64,000 nt of DNA, from positions 5,750 through 69,749 of the forward strand of contig JBKEBO010000058.1 of NCBI GenBank assembly GCA_047973205.1, given 5' to 3'. Of this stretch, positions 15,920 to 23,023 are shown piece by piece. Below the pieces are notes generated by a model. The model ran no database searches, was not told the DNA's origin, and saw only the letters and a program-made list of their open reading frames with translations. The first letter of the stretch is position 1. Every line of letters starts with the position of its first letter. Made by a program: the position numbers and the translations under genes. Source of the stretch: Alphaproteobacteria bacterium (GTDB taxonomy: Bacteria; Pseudomonadota; Alphaproteobacteria; JBKEAR01).

Positions 15920-16089
15920 ATAACCTCTTTCTTCACTATCAAGCCATTGTTTTTGTGTGGTAAAATTACAACATACACGGCAAAGGCTTGAGACACTAAG
16001 TTTTTATTAATATCTTTTCTGTAAAAAATTTTCTATACATTAGTATATTATATAACTAAAATCTTAAAAGGAAAAAAAAGAGGTTTGTG

Positions 16090-16899
16090 ATGAGTAGTAA
16101 GTTTGTAAAAGCATGTTTGGGCATTCTCATGTTTCTTTCGGCTCCGAGTTTTGCTTCTGGTTTAGACGATGATCGTCTAGCAGGTAAGGACTTCTTGGAT
16201 CATTTGGCACGTGAGTATCGTAGCTGCGGTAATGCAGAGGCTCGTGAGCGAGATATGAAGGACGCAAGATATTTTCGTAATCTAGCAGCTAAGGCTGAAA
16301 AAGGTCAGATGGTTCTACCTGCAGCCGTTAGTAGTCGTATTATTCCATCAGATTATTTATCGGAATTAAATACGGCAAAAGAAAAGCTTGATTATCATTT
16401 AGGTTTAGGGGCAAGAGACAATACTCCAGCGGCAGCGGCAGCGGCTCAGGCATCTTATGAATGCTGGTTGCAAGAAGCTGAAGAAAATAAGCTGGATGGT
16501 GATATTGATAAAGAGAAAGCAAAGTTTTATGCAAATCTTTCTGCTTTAACAAGCCCATTAACAACAACAGTGATTTACTTCCCTGTGGATAGTGCAACAC
16601 TAACATCTTCGGCACGTTCTAAACTCAATGCAATGGTTCGTCAAATGAAGGCGAATGGTATTAGAGACGTTGCTATGGGAACATATGCTTCTTCAACAGC
16701 TTCTTATACCCATAACTTGGCCTTAACAAAATTTAGAGCCGATGCCGTGAAAAACTACTTAAGAGCTCGTGGTATTCGCGAAGCGAGTGTTATCTTAAGA
16801 ACATATGGCGAGGGCGACTTAGCCGTACCTACAGGTAACAACAGAGAGAATAAGCTTAATCGTCGTGCGGTTTTATCTTTAGTGAAAAAGCGTCCATAA
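16090..16899 (+). CDS. OmpA-family periplasmic/outer-membrane protein
   Basis: The product has a signal peptide (…LSAPSFA|SG) and a C-terminal OmpA_C peptidoglycan-binding domain (NLALTKFRADAVKNYL…NRRAV). An AAGAGG RBS precedes the start, and the ORF track begins at the GTG at 16087. Confidence 0.85.
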   Translation: MSSKFVKACLGILMFLSAPSFASGLDDDRLAGKDFLDHLAREYRSCGNAEARERDMKDARYFRNLAAKAEKGQMVLPAAVSSRIIPSDYLSELNTAKEKLDYHLGLGARDNTPAAAAAAQASYECWLQEAEENKLDGDIDKEKAKFYANLSALTSPLTTTVIYFPVDSATLTSSARSKLNAMVRQMKANGIRDVAMGTYASSTASYTHNLALTKFRADAVKNYLRARGIREASVILRTYGEGDLAVPTGNNRENKLNRRAVLSLVKKRP

Positions 16900-16971: not shown

Positions 16972-17484
16972 CTAAACAAGGCTCTTTGCAAAGCTACGAA
17001 CCTGATCCCAATCGGTAAATTCAATATCAGTGCTTGTATCGGTTGGCCCTTTGGTCATAATCATAATAAATTGGATGATTTTGGTTTGCCAAAAATTATA
17101 TTTTGACCATGAGCAAGCCCCTGCAAAAACAGCCGCTTTTTTAGGTGTCCATTTAATTTTTTGTAGGAGTTTTTTGGTATAAATATTTGTTTCTGGTGTA
17201 TTTTTGCCCATCTTACGAGCCACTAGATTAATACCAAAAAAGTAAGAGGGCATATTATTTAGAGCCTCATGATGTGTTTCGATAAATGCATATAAATTCT
17301 TATGATAATGACCATAGCGAATAGAAGCTCCAATCACAACCATATCATAGGCTTGCCAGTCAATTTGAGGGTTTGTATGAATATCGATAATATCATAATT
17401 ATCACAAAGCATCTCGGAGGCAATCAGTCGCATGATTTTTACGCTATGGCCATCAGTTGAAGCAGTAAGTAGTAGGGCTTTCAT
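16972..17484 (-). CDS. hemG: Menaquinone-dependent protoporphyrinogen IX dehydrogenase HemG (flavodoxin-like)
   Basis: The 170 aa product matches the HemG family pattern, with VVIGASIRYGHYH in the long loop. Confidence 0.85.
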   Translation of the reverse strand: MKALLLTASTDGHSVKIMRLIASEMLCDNYDIIDIHTNPQIDWQAYDMVVIGASIRYGHYHKNLYAFIETHHEALNNMPSYFFGINLVARKMGKNTPETNIYTKKLLQKIKWTPKKAAVFAGACSWSKYNFWQTKIIQFIMIMTKGPTDTSTDIEFTDWDQVRSFAKSLV

Positions 17485-17512: not shown

Positions 17513-18295
17513 TTATAGGGCTAAAACTTCTTTTATGGTGGCATTGAGCCTTTTTAGGTCTCGAATGGTTGAGAGCCGATGATTGCCATCTTTAGGAAGC
17601 CAAAGCTCCACATCATTACCATTGAGCCATTGAGCAATTTTTACAGAGCGTTGCCAAGGAACAACATCATCTGCTAAACCATGAAGCAAACGAACTTTTA
17701 TGTGAGGCAAGCCAAAATCTTCACTCATAACATGTTGGCTTAAACCATCTTCATAAAGCTTTTTTGTCCATGGAACATGACCATCTTCGGCCCATTCATT
17801 AGGTTCATAAATAACGCCATCTTTCATTAAGGTTTCCATACCCTCATGGCCTAAGGCTTCAGGCATAATATCTGCCGTAAAATCAGGAGCAGGGGCAATG
17901 CCGATAAAAGCCGCAACACGCTCTTTAAGACGTTTAGCAAGCCAAAGAGAAATCCATCCACCCATGGAAGAGCCAATAAGAACAAGCCTTCCTGTGGTTT
18001 TTTGCTCAATGAGTTCTAAGGCATCATTTGCCCAACAGCTAATAGAGCCATCTTGAATAAAATCGCCCTCAGATTGCCCATTACCCGTATATTCTAGAGC
18101 CAAAAATCCTAAGTTTTTCTCTTGGGCTAGCCCATAAATTGCAGCCGATTTATCGCCATACATATCAGACATATAACCATGGAGGAAGACTAAAGTCATC
18201 TCGCTATTTTCTTGCTGAATATAAGCAAGTTTATAGCCATTACGGTTGGTAAAAAATGATGGTTGAGGTAGGGGGGTAAGGTTTTCGTAATCCAT
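17513..18295 (-). CDS. Alpha/beta-fold hydrolase
   Basis: The 260 aa product has a GSSMGG nucleophile elbow and a late His. Confidence 0.8.
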   Translation of the reverse strand: MDYENLTPLPQPSFFTNRNGYKLAYIQQENSEMTLVFLHGYMSDMYGDKSAAIYGLAQEKNLGFLALEYTGNGQSEGDFIQDGSISCWANDALELIEQKTTGRLVLIGSSMGGWISLWLAKRLKERVAAFIGIAPAPDFTADIMPEALGHEGMETLMKDGVIYEPNEWAEDGHVPWTKKLYEDGLSQHVMSEDFGLPHIKVRLLHGLADDVVPWQRSVKIAQWLNGNDVELWLPKDGNHRLSTIRDLKRLNATIKEVLAL

Positions 18296-18375
18296 ATCAA
18301 TATCTTTACTATCTTGTCAAAAAATTAATCTTTTGAGCGTATTATATAATGATTATGCAACAAGGTAAATGATTT

Positions 18376-18747
18376 ATGATGAAAAGAAGTTTTCCTTTTA
18401 TGGCTCTTTTGGGCTTGTCTTTTCTTACCGCCTGTACTTCAGTGCTAGACTTTAATAAAAAAGAAGAGCCTGTGCATCCTGTAGTTGGCAAATGGGCTGA
18501 GGCAGGTAAGTGTGATTCTATGCCTTGGATTTTTGGGCCAAAATCTGTCCGCTGGGGTAATAATGGCGGCCATTGGGTCGATATGGGTAGCAAGATTAAG
18601 GTTGTCAGTTATATTGCCCAAGAGCAAGCAACTATGACCCTTTACTTCACAAGGCCACAAAATAATGTGATGCGAACTCTCTCGTTAAATTATGGGGGAA
18701 CATCTATGTCTAATCGAGGAGGCAAGCTAACAAGATGTTCAAATTAA
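18376..18747 (+). CDS. Small lipoprotein, paralogue 1 of a 4-gene array (conserved Cys pair)
   Basis: The product has a lipobox at LTAC, a VGKW…C block and a C-terminal Cys (TRCSN). The next gene overlaps by 13 nt. Confidence 0.7.
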   Translation: MMKRSFPFMALLGLSFLTACTSVLDFNKKEEPVHPVVGKWAEAGKCDSMPWIFGPKSVRWGNNGGHWVDMGSKIKVVSYIAQEQATMTLYFTRPQNNVMRTLSLNYGGTSMSNRGGKLTRCSN

Positions 18748-19091
18748 AATTATTGATTATGTTTTTGCTCAGCTTATCTCTTGGGGCATGTGTTCATACT
18801 CAAAAGTCAAAGAATCCAATTGTCGGAAAATGGACAACATCATCTTGCAGCAATGCAATAACTCTACAAAGTAATCATCAAGTTCAAGGAAGTGTTTATG
18901 GCAATTGGGAGGAGCGAGAGCATATTGTTGAGCTTAATCTAGCCAAAAATATTAAAGGACAACGGCAATATATTCAAGTGCTACTTGCTAAGCCAAACCA
19001 AGAGAAAGTCAAGGTCTTACGCGTGATTTATCCCTTTGGAACATGGCAAGGCGGTTATAAATCAGGCGATATTCTTCGGAAATGTCGCTAG
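18735..19091 (+). CDS. Small lipoprotein, paralogue 2
   Basis: The product has a lipobox at LGAC, VGKWTTSSCS, and a C-terminal RKCR. Confidence 0.7.
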   Translation: MFKLKLLIMFLLSLSLGACVHTQKSKNPIVGKWTTSSCSNAITLQSNHQVQGSVYGNWEEREHIVELNLAKNIKGQRQYIQVLLAKPNQEKVKVLRVIYPFGTWQGGYKSGDILRKCR

Positions 19092-19254
19092 TATTTTAGC
19101 TATTGTAAAAAAGTAACACCCATCATAATAGATAATATATTTATCGATATTTTTTCTGTTTCTTTTTGATTTTTCTCTTTTTTTATGTAAAATATTTTTA
19201 CTCACACAAGGGAGACTTAAAAAAATTAACGATAAGGTTTGGAGAATATTTATT

Positions 19255-19635
19255 ATGAAAAAATTATTAGCATTATCAGCTATTGCAGGAATGATTGTTG
19301 TTTCAGGATGTACATCGGAGTTCGGTGGCTCATCATCATCTGGAATAGTCGGTACATATTCCGATAGTTGCTCAGCACCACAGTCAAGCTTCATCTTTAG
19401 AAATGGCGGCTCAGGAACCATTCAGGCTCGTGGTATGACACGCAATTTCACATGGACTCAAAATGGCCGTACGGCTTATGTGTCTGTACCAACATCAGGC
19501 GGTACTCCTGCCCAAACTTATGTGCTTAGCCGTACACAAAGCGGTGTTTATCTTTCTGGACTTACCGTTAATGGCAAACAACAGAATTTAACCGCTGTTC
19601 CTGCAAGTGAAAGAACAAAGACAAAATGTTCATAA
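19255..19635 (+). CDS. Small lipoprotein, paralogue 3
   Basis: The product has a lipobox at VSGC, VGTYSDSCS, and a C-terminal TKCS. A GGAGAA RBS precedes the start. Confidence 0.7.
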   Translation: MKKLLALSAIAGMIVVSGCTSEFGGSSSSGIVGTYSDSCSAPQSSFIFRNGGSGTIQARGMTRNFTWTQNGRTAYVSVPTSGGTPAQTYVLSRTQSGVYLSGLTVNGKQQNLTAVPASERTKTKCS

Positions 19636-20003
19636 AAAAGCATTTTGCTTTACTTTTTATTGTAAGCTTTTTAAGCGGGTGTACTCTTATGGGTACACCT
19701 TCTTTTTTAGAAGATACTTCCGTATCGGTAAAAACTGCTCAGGGGCGTTATGCCAATGATTGTTCCAATCCAAGAGAAGTCATAATTCTTAAAAAAGATG
19801 GGACGGCAATAGCCAAATATAAGAACCAAGTGAAGACTTTTTCTTGGCAACAAAAGGGAAGCGAAGTCATCTTCACCCATAGCGACCAAGGACATGTGGT
19901 AAGCCGCATTGATGAGCATGGTAATTTGAACTTATATCAACATCCCAGAGCCAAAGGACATTTCATCCCCCCCAAAGACCTTATACGTTATAAATGTTTG
20001 TAA
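19626..20003 (+). CDS. Small lipoprotein, paralogue 4
   Basis: The product has a lipobox at LSGC, GRYANDCS, and a C-terminal YKCL. It overlaps paralogue 3 by 10 nt. Confidence 0.7.
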   Translation: MFIKKHFALLFIVSFLSGCTLMGTPSFLEDTSVSVKTAQGRYANDCSNPREVIILKKDGTAIAKYKNQVKTFSWQQKGSEVIFTHSDQGHVVSRIDEHGNLNLYQHPRAKGHFIPPKDLIRYKCL

Positions 20004-20398: not shown

Positions 20399-21172
20399 AT
20401 GTATCTTGAAAAGTTAAGCTTAAAAGGAAAACGTGCGGTTATCACAGGAGCTGCTCGTGGTATTGGGCTTGCAATTTCAGAAGCTTTAGCCGAAGCAGGG
20501 GCTGAGGTTATTTTAACCGATATGCATAAAGAAGCCCTTAAAGAGGCAAAAGATTTACTTGCTCAAAAAGGCTATGAAACACAAACATTTGTGCTTGATG
20601 TTACCAATGTTGACCAAGTGAATAAAGCGGCAGAGCATATCGAAAGCCATATTGGTCCAGTCAATATTTTGGTAAATAATGCAGGAATTGCTATATCAAA
20701 CCATCCTGCAGAAGATATGAGTGATGAGGTTTGGAATAAGGTTATTGATGTTAATCTGAATGGTGTTTTTTGGTGCTGTAGGGCTTTTGGTAAGTCTATG
20801 GTACTAAGGGAGGAGGGGGCGATTGTCAATGTTGGTTCAATGTCAGCCAATATTGTCAATCGTCCACAGGAACAAGCCAATTATAATGCTTCTAAAGCAG
20901 GGGTGCATCATCTCACACGTTCACTTGCAGCCGAATGGGCCTCCAAAGGTGTACGTGTTAATGTGGTTGCTCCTACCTATATTGATACCGAGATGAATGC
21001 CTATGTTTATGAAGATAAAGAAATGTATCGCTATTGGGTGGGAGGAACACCCATGGGGCGTTTAGGGCGTACGGATGAAGTTGCCTCAGTCGTCCATTTT
21101 TTAGTGAGTGATGCAGCAAGCCTTATGACAGGCTCAATTGTCCTTGCTGATGGTGGTTATTGCTGCTGGTAA
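20399..21172 (+). CDS. Short-chain dehydrogenase/reductase (SDR) family oxidoreductase
   Basis: The 257 aa product has a TGAARGIG cofactor motif and a YxxxK active site. It is a paralogue of the SDR at 32607-33404; both end in an unusual GG.CC(W/E) C-terminus. Confidence 0.88.
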   Translation: MYLEKLSLKGKRAVITGAARGIGLAISEALAEAGAEVILTDMHKEALKEAKDLLAQKGYETQTFVLDVTNVDQVNKAAEHIESHIGPVNILVNNAGIAISNHPAEDMSDEVWNKVIDVNLNGVFWCCRAFGKSMVLREEGAIVNVGSMSANIVNRPQEQANYNASKAGVHHLTRSLAAEWASKGVRVNVVAPTYIDTEMNAYVYEDKEMYRYWVGGTPMGRLGRTDEVASVVHFLVSDAASLMTGSIVLADGGYCCW

Positions 21173-21194
21173 GATAAAATTAAGGAGAGTAATT

Positions 21195-21944
21195 GTGCGT
21201 ATTGAAGAGACATTTCCAAATGATTTATTTAAAGGTCAAACAATATTTATATCAGGAGGTTCAAGCGGTATTGGCCAAACAGTTGCCCAAGGCTTTGCTC
21301 ATACAGGAGCAAAAGTGATTGCTACAGGAAGTTCCGCTACTAAAGTCGAAAAAGCCAATCAGGAAAATAATCTAGAAAATATCCAGTATGAGGTTTTAGA
21401 TGTTCGGAATTATGAAGCCGTTAAAGCACGTTTTGCCTCACTTGATGAGCTGCATGTTTTATTTAATTGCCAAGGTGTTGCACGCCCTGAAAGCGAATGG
21501 ACAGAAGAAGAGTTTTTAAATGTAATGGATATTAATTTAAATAGTGCGATGAGGCTTAGTCGTGAGGCCTTCCCTCATCTTAAAAAAACCAAAGGAAGTA
21601 TTGTTAATGTGGCATCAATGCTCAGCTATTTAGCCGATGCAGATGTACCTTCTTATACGGCTTCAAAAACAGGGATTGTTGGGCTTACGAGAGTTTTGGC
21701 TCATAAATATGGCATTGATGGTGTTCGGGTGAATGCTATTGCTCCAGGCTATCATAAAACCAATATGACCAAGCCTTTATGGAGTGTTGAAGAAAGTGCA
21801 GAAAAAATAGCAAACCGCTCGGCTCTTAAACGTTGGGGGACAACAGATGATCTTGTAGGCCCAGTTTTGTTTTTAGCATCACCAGCCGCAAGCTTTGTTA
21901 CAGGTATTACTCTAGCTGTTGATGGAGGATATCATATAGGGTAA
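21195..21944 (+). CDS. SDR-family oxidoreductase
   Basis: The product has an ISGGSSGIG motif. A GTG start with an AAGGAGAG RBS is preferred over the track's 21138 ATG, which overlaps the previous gene by 35 nt. Confidence 0.85.
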   Translation: MRIEETFPNDLFKGQTIFISGGSSGIGQTVAQGFAHTGAKVIATGSSATKVEKANQENNLENIQYEVLDVRNYEAVKARFASLDELHVLFNCQGVARPESEWTEEEFLNVMDINLNSAMRLSREAFPHLKKTKGSIVNVASMLSYLADADVPSYTASKTGIVGLTRVLAHKYGIDGVRVNAIAPGYHKTNMTKPLWSVEESAEKIANRSALKRWGTTDDLVGPVLFLASPAASFVTGITLAVDGGYHIG

Positions 21945-21991: not shown

Positions 21992-23023
21992 ATGAATAAC
22001 TTTAAAACAAAAATTTTAAGTACATGTATTATTGCAACGGCAATTATAGGTACAACGGCCTATGCAAAAGATAAAGAAATTAGTGCATGTATTATTACCA
22101 AAACAGATGCCAATCCATTTTTTGCAAAAATGCGTGAAGGTGCTGAACAACGTTCAAAAGAGCTTGGTATTAAGCTGAAATCTTTTGCGGGTAAATATGA
22201 TGGCGATAACCAAGCTCAGGTTGATGCGATTGAAACTTGTATTTTGGACGGGGTGGATGGTATTTTGATGTCTCCTAATGACTCAAAAGCCATTGTACCA
22301 AAAGTTAAAGAAGCTCGTGATGCAGGGATTTTATTTATTACTGTTGACTCTCCCTTAGACCCTCTTGATGCAGCCGATGCAACTTTTGGTACAGATAATT
22401 ACAAGGCGGGTGTTCTGATTGGTCAATGGGCAAAAGCAAAAATGGGAGCTGATGCGGCCAAAGCTCGTATTGGATTTTTAGATATCAATGCAAGCCAAGT
22501 AGCGGTGGATGTTCTTCGTGATCAAGGCTTTATGGAAGGTTTTGGTATTGACGTTAAAGATGCAAATTATATTGGTGATGAAGATGATCCTCGTATAATT
22601 GGTCATGCCTATTCTAATGGTGCCGAAGAAGGTGGTTATAAAGCCATGGAAACCATTTTGCAGATGGACCCTAATGTGAATATAATTCATACAATTAACG
22701 AGCCTGCAGCAGCAGGAGCCTACGAAGCATTAAAAGCCGTTGGTAAACAAGATGATGTGATTATTGTTTCGGTTGATGGTGGTTGCCCTGGTGTGCAAAA
22801 TGTTAAGGAAGGTATTATTGGTGCAACATCGCAGCAATATCCATTACGGATGACAATATTGGGCATTGATGCTATTAAAGAATATGCTGAAACAGGCAAA
22901 AAACCTGAGCCAACACCAGGAAAAGACTTCTTTGATACAGGAGTTAAATTGATTACGGATCAACCTGTAGATGGCGTTGATTCCATTGATTCTAAAGAAG
23001 GTGCTAGTCTTTGCTGGGGTTAA
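21992..23023 (+). CDS. Sugar ABC transporter periplasmic substrate-binding protein (type I PBP, ribose/fructose-binding-like)
   Basis: The 343 aa product has a signal peptide and PBP-1 fold conservation. Confidence 0.88.

What the first reader, a model, noticed from the sequence alone, without database searches (positions are those of the whole stretch)
18376..20003. Tandem array of four paralogous ~120-aa lipoproteins with a conserved Cys pair
Each of the four consecutive genes encodes a lipobox signal peptide (LTAC/LGAC/VSGC/LSGC), an N-proximal (V/Q)G(K/T/R)(W/Y)…(D/S)C(S/D) block and a C-terminal Cys 1-3 residues from the end (TRCSN, RKCR, TKCS, YKCL). They are arranged as two translationally overlapping pairs. 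Sequence divergence between copies is high, which suggests diversifying selection. The Cys pair and small β-rich composition recall periplasmic lipocalin- or MliC-like inhibitor folds. A surface-exposed, host-interaction role is plausible for a host-associated alphaproteobacterium.
Basis: partly seen in the sequence, partly recalled or inferred. Interest (0 to 1): 0.6.

Follow-up and report, generated by a model that had tools for sequence, protein, structure and literature searches.

The report
Four small beta-barrel lipoproteins, two coupled pairs
Four adjacent genes in an uncultured alphaproteobacterium, whose relatives were assembled from land-crab gut samples, encode small membrane-anchored lipocalin-like barrel proteins of unknown role; they are real and conserved but belong to an ordinary kind.

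Summary
Window 18376-20003 carries four real genes, here called LpA to LpD. Each encodes a lipoprotein signal peptide and exactly two further cysteines, one 4-6 residues after a G-x-W/Y motif and one 1-3 residues from the C-terminus. The genes form two overlapping pairs.

The same quartet, in the same order and with the same overlaps, occurs in four other related genomes. It is under purifying selection (dN/dS 0.06-0.24), not diversifying selection.

By sequence these are two families (A~B and C~D), not one four-member family. Cross-pair similarity is not significant.

Both families are very rare; an exhaustive search of 1.84 billion representatives with the A/B profile found about seven. Copy number is 1, 2 or 4 across relatives, always beside the same cytoplasmic alpha/beta hydrolase gene.

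In every pair the downstream ATG is built from the upstream gene's C-terminal Cys codon.

Function is inferred only: a non-enzymatic envelope binding module. This is a new member of a known kind, of modest interest.

The parts
17513..18295 (-). Cytoplasmic alpha/beta hydrolase (Hydrolase_4 / Abhydrolase type, 260 aa, GSSMGG nucleophile elbow, no signal peptide). It is the only neighbour that stays constant next to the lipoprotein genes, and it is transcribed divergently from them.
   Evidence: ORF. Only generic sub-threshold alpha/beta hydrolase hits in NCBIfam. Divergent from the first lipoprotein gene in L001, L004, L005-L008, L009 and L010, while the other flanks change.
18296..18375 (.). 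80-nt divergent intergenic region between the hydrolase and LpA. It is the presumed promoter region for the A/B unit.
   Evidence: Sequence. A promoter-like site was found on the minus strand only. The LpA promoter is inferred, not shown.
18376..18747 (+). LpA: a 123-aa lipoprotein precursor with lipobox LTAC (Cys20), motif VGKW-x5-C46 and C-terminal Cys121. The mature protein is 104 aa, pI 9.5.
   Evidence: Orthologues share 43-66% identity in four other genomes. Homologous to LpB (hhalign E 7e-7).
18735..18747 (+). A/B overlap junction (ATGTTCAAATTAA). The LpB start codon consists of the last base of LpA's Arg codon plus the TG of LpA's C-terminal Cys codon.
   Evidence: The same construction is present in all five genomes.
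18735..19091 (+). LpB: a 118-aa lipoprotein precursor with lipobox LGAC (Cys19), motif VGKW-x4-C38 and C-terminal Cys117. The mature protein is 100 aa and is modelled as an eight-stranded beta-barrel. A strong GAGGAGG Shine-Dalgarno sequence lies inside the 3' end of LpA.
19092..19254 (+). 163-nt AT-rich spacer containing promoter-like hexamers and a conserved GGAGAA Shine-Dalgarno sequence in front of LpC. It makes C/D a likely second transcription unit.
   Evidence: Promoter-like sites at 19113-19141 and 19166-19193. The T-rich/TATAAAAT-like block and T-GGAGAA are conserved in five loci. A weak terminator-like hairpin at 19065-19089 is not well conserved.
19255..19635 (+). LpC: a 126-aa lipoprotein precursor with lipobox VSGC (Cys19), motif VGTY-x3-C39 and C-terminal Cys125. 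The mature protein is 108 aa. It is the most conserved of the four and carries an invariant loop VP-x-SGGTPAQTY.
19626..19635 (+). C/D overlap junction (ATGTTCATAA). The LpD start codon consists of the last base of LpC's Lys codon plus the TG of LpC's C-terminal Cys codon. It is identical to the A/B junction of L003 and L005.
19626..20003 (+). LpD: a 125-aa lipoprotein precursor with lipobox LSGC (Cys19), motif GRY-x3-C46 and C-terminal Cys124. The database annotation starts it at an internal Met (104 aa), which removes the signal peptide.
   Evidence: The short form is P0019. The lipobox-bearing N-terminus and the 10-nt overlap are conserved in all five genomes. Homologous to LpC (hhalign E 3e-8).

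Best explanation
The locus encodes two bicistronic pairs (A-B and C-D) of small, basic lipoproteins whose mature forms are about 11-12 kDa.

Export and anchoring. Each protein is exported by Sec, lipidated at the lipobox Cys and cleaved by signal peptidase II. Because residue +2 is never Asp, each is most likely passed by Lol to the outer membrane. The lipid anchor carries an 11-21-residue flexible tether.

Fold. The tether leads to a compact eight-stranded up-and-down barrel of calycin type (lipocalin / avidin / Tp17-like). The barrel carries the calycin latch: an aromatic residue of G-x-W/Y in strand 1 and a Lys or Arg in the last strand. The two invariant Cys lie just after strand 1 and just after the latch Lys/Arg. 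They most likely form a DsbA-made disulfide that covalently reinforces this latch.

Expression. The second gene of each pair is translationally coupled to the first, because its ATG is built from the first gene's C-terminal Cys codon. The partners should therefore be made in fixed ratio and may act as heterodimers.

Function. The barrel is too small for a lipocalin calyx, so the proteins most likely act as non-enzymatic protein-binding or surface-binding modules of the cell envelope, Tp17 / NlpE-N-like, rather than as carriers or enzymes.

Shown: the genes, lipoboxes, Cys conservation, overlaps, purifying selection and fold class.
Inferred: outer-membrane sorting, the disulfide, heterodimers and the binding role.
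For: - Genes, lipoboxes and exactly three Cys in all 20 orthologues from five genomes. The more distant homologues P0024 (no lipobox Cys) and P0025 keep both other Cys.
- Residue +2 is T, Q, V, F or G, never D.
- Purifying selection: omega 0.06-0.24, against 0.09 for the neighbouring hydrolase.
- AF2 models: LpB pLDDT 88.5 and LpC 85.3, each with eight strands. The N-terminal 5-9 residues fall below pLDDT 50, consistent with a tether.
- Pfam GH43_C lipocalin-like domain hits 7 of 10 A/B-family members, the best at 23.6 bits against a cut-off of 23.4.
- The A/B profile also weakly hits repeated 'NPIIGTW' lipocalin-like modules.
- The calycin latch (Trp in the first strand, Lys/Arg in the last strand) is described in PMC2954199. 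G-x-W/Y is present in 18 of 20 orthologues, and K/R immediately precedes the C-terminal Cys in 19 of 20.
- The overlap and the ATG-in-Cys-codon junction are conserved in both pairs in all genomes.
- No enzyme family hits.
Against: - The Cys-Cys distance could not be measured. In a simple eight-strand meander, the loop after strand 1 and the end of strand 8 lie at opposite barrel ends. An intramolecular disulfide is therefore not self-evident. It rests on strands 1 and 8 being short (4-5 residues) and on the latch analogy.
- Only LpB and LpC were modelled. LpA and LpD are covered by homology to their partners.
- A/B and C/D show no significant sequence similarity, so the shared fold may reflect convergence within a very common fold.
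- There is no expression data, no partner gene, and no evidence for dimers.
- The +2 sorting rule is an E. coli rule.
Confidence: 0.55

Rival explanations
1. They are proteinaceous inhibitors or immunity proteins. In this reading they are periplasmic shields against host or competitor enzymes, such as lysozyme inhibitors of MliC/PliC type, protease inhibitors of potempin or Inh type, or type VI secretion immunity proteins. The four diverged copies would then cover different targets in the crab gut.
For: - They are small, disulfide-containing barrel lipoproteins in a gut-associated lineage.
- Copy number varies among relatives, at 1, 2 or 4.
Against: - The inhibitor hits rank below avidins, Tp17 and lipocalin-like proteins.
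- No effector or protease gene lies next to the array. The neighbours are a cytoplasmic hydrolase, HemG and SDRs.
- The one NCBIfam 'T6SS immunity lipoprotein' hit covers only the signal peptide.
- The orthologous quartets are stable and under purifying selection, not in an arms-race pattern.
Confidence: 0.17
2. They are surface-exposed adhesins or host-interaction lipoproteins, working like Treponema pallidum Tp17 (TP0435), which has been reported to mediate adherence.
For: - Tp17 was reported as an adhesin when expressed in Borrelia (PMC4861935).
- The proteins are basic, with pI 8.5-9.8.
- Related genomes come from a land-crab gut metagenome project.
Against: - There is no evidence of surface exposure. 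Most proteobacterial lipoproteins face the periplasm.
- No surface-lipoprotein export gene (Slam-type) was seen next to the locus.
- Tp17 itself is described as mostly periplasmic (PMC12417408).
- The similarity is at fold level only. Pfam NlpE gave no hit.
Confidence: 0.12
3. They are true lipocalin-like carriers that bind a small hydrophobic or cofactor ligand (lipid, isoprenoid or a vitamin such as biotin) in the barrel and shuttle it within the envelope.
For: - The fold is calycin-type with a G-x-W motif.
Against: - The barrel part has only about 85-90 residues, whereas lipocalins have about 160-180.
- The closest solved relative, Tp17, is described as having no central channel, with side chains filling the interior (PMC12417408).
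- There are no Pfam hits to avidin, lipocalin or Blc, and identity to avidins is 5-20%.
Confidence: 0.12
4. The ORFs are chance open frames or decaying pseudogenes, not functional genes.
For: - No curated family matches above threshold apart from one borderline hit.
- The families are extremely rare.
Against: - Four orthologous sets are conserved in five genomes with intact frames, lipoboxes and Cys.
- dN/dS is 0.06-0.24.
- The AF2 folds are confident.
- Shine-Dalgarno sequences are conserved.
Confidence: 0.02

Closest known systems
Treponema pallidum Tp17 (TP0435, PDB 4u3q) and the related N-terminal domain of E. coli NlpE (PDB 2z4h)
   Same: - Both are small lipoproteins with a tether and an eight-stranded barrel of about 100 residues.
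- A Cys sits a few residues after the aromatic residue of strand 1, at roughly the place of the NlpE/Tp17 'ADC' motif. This point is recalled from memory and is a lead only.
   Different: - No sequence-level relationship was found. Pfam NlpE gave no hit, PDB profile searches found nothing, and identity is 13-22%.
- There is no CXXC motif.
- The invariant C-terminal Cys and the paired-gene organisation are not features of Tp17 or NlpE.
Bacterial 'lipocalin-like domain' proteins: Bacteroides BT_0869 (PDB 3hty) and Pfam GH43_C (PF16369), Lipocalin_3 and DUF5640
   Same: - They share the N-terminal (I/V)-G-x-W start and an eight-stranded barrel of about 90-100 residues.
- Mature LpB scores 23.6 bits against GH43_C, whose cut-off is 23.4, and 7 of 10 A/B members hit it.
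- LpC orthologues hit DUF5640 at E of about 3e-4.
   Different: - All hits are at or below threshold.
- LpA and LpD do not hit these families.
- GH43_C is a domain of secreted arabinanases, not a stand-alone lipoprotein.
- The Cys pair is specific to the present families.
Avidin / streptavidin family
   Different: There is no Pfam avidin hit and identity is only 5-20%. The present proteins have few Trp in C/D, are lipid-anchored, and nothing suggests biotin binding.
MliC / PliC lysozyme inhibitors
   Same: They are small periplasmic or lipoprotein eight-stranded barrels with a disulfide. This is general knowledge.

Membership tests
Bacterial lipoproteins (signal peptidase II substrates) | N-terminal signal peptide with a positively charged n-region, a hydrophobic h-region and a lipobox [LVI][ASTVI][GAS]C | tested here: met
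   LTAC, LGAC, VSGC and LSGC end at residue 19/20 and are preceded by K/R and a hydrophobic run. A lipobox-like tetrapeptide ending in Cys is conserved in all 20 orthologues, with variants such as LMAC, TSAC, ITAC and AVGC. No dedicated predictor such as SignalP or LipoP was available.
Bacterial lipoproteins (signal peptidase II substrates) | Actual lipidation and cleavage; outer-membrane sorting (no Asp at +2) | not testable with these tools
   Residue +2 is T, Q, V, F or G, never Asp. The sorting inference uses the E. coli rule. It needs globomycin or palmitate labelling and membrane fractionation.
Calycin superfamily (lipocalin / avidin-like barrels) | Eight-stranded antiparallel up-and-down beta-barrel | tested here: met
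Calycin superfamily (lipocalin / avidin-like barrels) | Latch signature: G-x-W in the first strand packing on a Lys/Arg of the last strand, with a 3-10 helix cap (PMC2954199) | tested here: inconclusive
   At sequence level, G-x-W is present in all A and B orthologues. G-x-Y/F is present in all C and in 3 of 5 D orthologues. K/R sits directly before the C-terminal Cys in 19 of 20. DSSP shows no 3-10 helix before strand 1. Spatial packing could not be checked without coordinates.
Lipocalin family proper (Pfam Lipocalin, bacterial Blc) | About 160-180 residues, three structurally conserved regions, a C-terminal helix and a ligand calyx; Pfam hit above threshold | tested here: not met
   There are no Pfam Lipocalin or Blc hits. 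The only one is Lipocalin_3 at E 0.12-0.17 for LpD. The mature proteins are 100-108 aa.
Pfam GH43_C lipocalin-like domain (PF16369) | Score at or above the gathering cut-off of 23.4 bits | tested here: inconclusive
   Mature LpB scores 23.6 bits and full-length LpB 23.2 bits. 7 of 10 A/B members hit at E <= 1. LpA, LpC and LpD do not hit.
MliC / PliC lysozyme inhibitors | Pfam MliC match and closest structural similarity to MliC or PliC chains | tested here: not met
NlpE N-terminal domain / Tp17 family | Pfam NlpE match; CXXC (or ADC) motif in the loop after strand 1; the same barrel | tested here: inconclusive
Avidin family | Pfam avidin match and the biotin-binding Trp/Tyr/Ser/Asn set | tested here: not met
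Effector-immunity or protease-inhibitor gene pairs | A cognate effector or protease gene adjacent to the small lipoprotein gene | tested here: not met
   The neighbours are a cytoplasmic alpha/beta hydrolase, HemG, an OmpA-family protein and SDRs. There are no PADLOC hits. In the distant relative L009 a DegP-like protease follows the single gene, but not in the window.

The most novel reading that the evidence does not exclude
The two invariant cysteines may lie at opposite ends of the barrel and form intermolecular rather than intramolecular disulfides. Each translationally coupled pair (A-B, C-D) would then be an obligate, covalently cross-linked heterodimer or head-to-tail chain on the inner face of the outer membrane. 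Its stoichiometry would be hard-wired by placing the partner's start codon inside the Cys codon. Such a pair could serve as a lineage-specific shield or inhibitor against host (crab gut) enzymes.
Probability: 0.1. Interest if true: 0.55.

Novelty: new member of a known kind. Interest (0 to 1): 0.3.

Why it matters
If the reading is right, these are two previously unnamed, very narrowly distributed sequence families of calycin-type barrel lipoproteins. They come from an uncultured alphaproteobacterial lineage, and relatives of it were assembled from a land-crab gut metagenome project.

They add to the catalogue of small lipocalin-like envelope proteins of unknown role, alongside Tp17 and the NlpE N-terminal domain.

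They also offer a tidy example of gene-pair evolution. Relatives carry 1, 2 or 4 genes. The overlap junction is reused, and in it the downstream start codon is made from the upstream gene's structurally essential Cys codon.

Nothing here bears on a long-standing open question. The practical value lies in annotation, including correcting the truncated LpD start, and in supplying candidates for host-interaction or inhibitor screens in crab-gut symbionts.

Tried and rejected
1. One four-member paralogous family. Full-length profile comparison of A/B against C/D gave E 2e-5, but only over the signal peptide plus the VGKW..C motif. With the signal peptides removed, nothing remains: E 0.24 and all cross pairs E > 0.1. 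The single family is rejected at sequence level and kept only as 'same fold and same architecture'.

2. Diversifying selection. Rejected on dN/dS of 0.06-0.24. Distant pairs are saturated at synonymous sites and were not used.

4. Defence system or phage origin. There are no PADLOC hits.

5. Functional link to the neighbours. The hydrolase is a generic cytoplasmic alpha/beta hydrolase, not a Tle-like lipase effector, and the other neighbours are housekeeping genes.

6. Sequence relatives with solved structures. None were found, either by single sequence or by profile.

7. Wider distribution. Only 3-11 clusters per query were found among 5.8 billion. About 7 of 1.84 billion representatives matched the A/B profile. 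Only one GTDB species representative carries a relative of LpC (the query used). JGI metagenomes gave none in two scans.

8. RNA features. There are no Rfam hits anywhere in the window.

9. Taxon below class. Cluster look-ups return only 'Alphaproteobacteria bacterium'.

10. The Tp17 structure paper (PMC4282407) is not held, so the positions of the Tp17 disulfide and dimer could not be compared.

11. Cys-Cys distance. Model coordinates are not written to /data, so it could not be measured.
Full report
**1. What is in the sequence**

Window 18376-20003 holds four consecutive + strand ORFs. I call them LpA to LpD:
- LpA, 18376-18747, 123 aa
- LpB, 18735-19091, 118 aa
- LpC, 19255-19635, 126 aa
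- LpD, 19626-20003, 125 aa

Each begins with a K/R-containing n-region, a hydrophobic run and a lipobox (LTAC, LGAC, VSGC, LSGC). Each contains exactly three cysteines: the lipobox Cys, one N-proximal Cys and one Cys 1-3 residues from the C-terminus.

The mature proteins are 100-108 aa, 11-12 kDa and basic, with pI 9.2-9.8 in the window and 8.5-9.8 across orthologues.

A/B overlap by 13 nt and C/D by 10 nt. The one detail to correct is that LpA has K, not D/S, before the N-proximal Cys.

**2. The genes are real**

The window matches a 76.9-kb contig of a MAG labelled only 'Alphaproteobacteria bacterium'. LpA to LpC are annotated there as hypothetical proteins ACK5MJ_06860-06870.

Searches of 5.8 billion protein clusters found only a handful of relatives. 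Their contigs show the same four genes in the same order in four further genomes: L001/L002, L003, L004 and L005-L008. In all 20 orthologues the lipobox Cys and the two other Cys are the only cysteines. The A/B overlap (7-13 nt) and the C/D overlap (10 nt) are conserved.

Nei-Gojobori dN/dS for the least saturated genome pairs:

| Genome pair | A | B | C | D | Adjacent hydrolase |
|---|---|---|---|---|---|
| L001-L004 | 0.06 | 0.14 | 0.08 | 0.195 | 0.094 |
| L003-L005 | 0.235 | 0.16 | 0.15 | 0.17 | not available |

This is purifying selection on all four genes. The large divergence between copies is old and predates the split of these genomes.

**3. One family or two**

Pairwise BLASTP of the mature parts gives C-D 2e-8 and A-B 0.008, and nothing significant for the other pairs (best A-C, E 0.22).

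Profile-profile comparison of five-genome orthologue alignments, mature parts only, gives A-B 92% probability (E 7e-7, 90 columns) and C-D 95% (E 3e-8, 49 columns). All four cross comparisons give E > 0.1. An apparent cross-match with full-length profiles (E 2e-5) covers only the signal peptide and the VGKW..C motif.

HMMs of each group find only the partner gene among all 321 ORFs of the window.

By sequence, then, there are two families. What unites the four is architecture: lipobox, tether, G-x-W/Y followed 4-6 residues later by Cys, K/R-Cys at the C-terminus, similar size, and fold.

**4. Fold**

AlphaFold2 with small family alignments gave confident models:
- Mature LpB: pLDDT 88.5, pTM 0.78
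- Mature LpC: pLDDT 85.3, pTM 0.74

Both are all-beta with eight strands. Their N-terminal 5-9 residues have low confidence, consistent with a flexible tether.

| Hit | LpC | LpB |
|---|---|---|

Forty-three of the top 60 hits and 12 of the top 20 are shared, so the two families have the same fold class. Foldseek for LpB gave only weak hits of the same kinds.

At sequence level the only near-threshold family is Pfam GH43_C, 'C-terminal lipocalin-like domain'. Mature LpB scores 23.6 bits against a cut-off of 23.4, and 7 of 10 A/B members match. LpC orthologues give sub-threshold DUF5640 hits.

An exhaustive HMMER search of 1.84 billion representatives with the A/B profile found about seven true members. 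Beyond these it found only weak hits to repeated 'NPIIGTW...' lipocalin-like modules.

The calycin superfamily is defined by a barrel latched by a Trp of the first strand and a Lys/Arg of the last strand (PMC2954199). Here G-x-W/Y is present in 18 of 20 orthologues. K/R directly precedes the C-terminal Cys in 19 of 20.

**5. The cysteines**

Their strict co-conservation suggests a disulfide. They are conserved in all four groups, in a homologue that has lost the lipobox Cys (P0024) and in a distant single-copy homologue (P0025). The location is also extracytoplasmic.

The N-proximal Cys follows the latch aromatic residue, and the C-terminal Cys follows the latch K/R. A bond between them would therefore staple the barrel closure.

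I could not test this. In a plain eight-strand meander, the loop after strand 1 and the end of strand 8 point to opposite ends of the barrel. The inference leans on strands 1 and 8 being only 4-5 residues long. This is the main open point and the first thing to check.

**6. Gene organisation**

In both pairs and in all five genomes, the downstream ATG consists of the last base of the K/R codon plus the TG of the upstream gene's C-terminal Cys codon. The junction aaATGTTCATAAaaa is identical in A/B of L003 and L005 and in C/D of the window.

LpB has a strong GAGGAGG Shine-Dalgarno sequence inside LpA. LpC has a conserved GGAGAA. Its upstream spacer contains conserved promoter-like T-rich and TATAAAAT-like elements.

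The simplest reading is two transcription units (A-B and C-D). Within each unit the second gene would be translationally coupled to the first. This is inferred from the overlaps and was not measured.

The database annotation of LpD starts at an internal Met, giving 104 aa and no signal peptide (P0019). The conserved lipobox-bearing extension argues for the 125-aa form.

**7. Context and distribution**

The only constant neighbour is a divergently transcribed cytoplasmic alpha/beta hydrolase (17513-18295). It gives only generic family hits. The other flanks differ between genomes.

Copy number varies among relatives:
- A distant relative (L009) has a single A-like gene in the same position beside the hydrolase, followed by a DegP-like protease and a lytic transglycosylase.
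- Another relative (L010/L011) has only the A-B pair.
- The window and four other genomes have four genes.

No relative was found in JGI metagenomes. Only one was found among the GTDB species representatives scanned.

Contigs L001 and L002 (SRR30067259 and SRR30067261) fall inside the accession ranges of a land-crab gut metagenome project, as does the MAG behind L004 (JBKEAR). That project reports 'novel Alphaproteobacteria' enriched in more terrestrial crabs. The window's own MAG has a neighbouring locus-tag prefix, but I could not confirm its sample.

**8. Mechanism**

Shown: the proteins are lipoprotein precursors with a calycin-type barrel, an invariant Cys pair, conserved pairwise overlap, and purifying selection.

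Inferred:
- Lol-dependent outer-membrane anchoring, because there is no Asp at +2
- a latch-stapling disulfide
- fixed-ratio co-production and possible heterodimers
- a non-enzymatic binding role

The barrel has only about 85-90 residues. Its closest solved relative, Tp17, is described as having its interior filled with side chains. I therefore favour surface- or loop-mediated protein binding over carriage of a ligand in a calyx. The invariant LpC loop VP-x-SGGTPAQTY is a candidate interaction site.

The rivals are inhibitor or immunity proteins, surface adhesins and small-ligand carriers. They remain possible and are listed in the rival explanations with their tests.

**9. Verdict**

The evolutionary claim of diversifying selection and the specific MliC analogy are not supported. 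Function remains inferred.

These are new, very narrow sequence families of a well-known kind of protein. Interest is modest (0.3). The reused overlap junction, with a start codon inside the Cys codon, and the 1, 2 or 4 gene series are the most distinctive features.

Noticed in passing
window 19626-19688 (N-terminus of LpD): Gene callers and the NCBI record start LpD at an internal Met (P0019, 104 aa, 'MGTPSF...'), which cuts off the signal peptide and lipobox. The longer ORF, with its lipobox and 10-nt overlap, is conserved in all five genomes, so the annotated start is probably wrong. The same truncation affects the orthologues P0017, P0020 and P0021.
   Followed up: yes
L009 2577-8172 (GCA_040777385.1 contig JBEVUN010566105.1): A distant relative carries a single A-like lipoprotein gene (P0025) in the same position beside the alpha/beta hydrolase. 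A DegP/HtrA-like protease and an SLT lytic transglycosylase follow it 59 nt downstream, and a CueP-family gene lies nearby. This envelope quality-control neighbourhood is not seen in the window.
   Followed up: partly
L010 2670-3373 and L011 1-1657 (SRR26065833): This relative has only the A-B pair. After LpB there is a gap of about 450 nt and then the 3' end of an rpoC-like gene on the other strand. The C-D pair is therefore absent at this site, and copy number among relatives is 1, 2 or 4.
   Followed up: partly
P0024 (119 aa, from the representative search): A B-like homologue has an ordinary signal peptide ('...NTVVQAKVN') without a lipobox Cys, yet keeps both other Cys. It looks like a soluble periplasmic version of the same barrel.
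   Followed up: no
P0026 (3901 aa), P0027 (2569 aa), P0028 (324 aa): The A/B profile weakly matches 3-10 repeated stretches in very large proteins and in a 324-aa lipoprotein containing three 'NPIIGTWK...GTWE' modules. These look like tandem lipocalin-like domains and show how generic the G-x-W start is.
   Followed up: partly
window 16972-17484 (-) and 16087-16899 (+): Upstream genes. The first is a menaquinone-dependent protoporphyrinogen IX dehydrogenase (HemG; NCBIfam 207 bits against a cut-off of 142). The second is a secreted OmpA/Pal-like peptidoglycan-binding protein. Both are syntenic in L001 (and HemG also in L004), but in L005 the hydrolase's outer neighbour is an SMC_N/AAA protein gene instead.
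   Followed up: partly
window 20399-21172 and 21138-21944 (+): Two adjacent SDR-family oxidoreductase ORFs overlap by 35 nt as listed, and the second has a TTG start. The overlap may come from the mechanical ORF start. A sugar ABC substrate-binding protein gene follows at 21992.
   Followed up: no
window 1-64000: No Rfam family reaches its gathering score anywhere in the 64-kb window. That means no tRNA, rRNA, riboswitch or known sRNA in the whole window.
   Followed up: no
window 19062-19421 (-): A 119-aa antisense ORF spans the B-C spacer and the start of LpC. It is low-complexity and AT-rich, and is probably spurious given the purifying selection on the + strand frames.
   Followed up: no
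L001, L002, L004 (SRR30067259, SRR30067261; MAG VLC_093, JBKEAR01): These related contigs fall within the accession ranges of BioProject PRJNA1141481, land-crab gut metagenomes (bioRxiv 10.64898/2026.04.24.720673). That study notes 'novel Alphaproteobacteria' that are more abundant in more terrestrial crabs. The window's own MAG (locus tags ACK5MJ) was not traced to a sample.
   Followed up: partly
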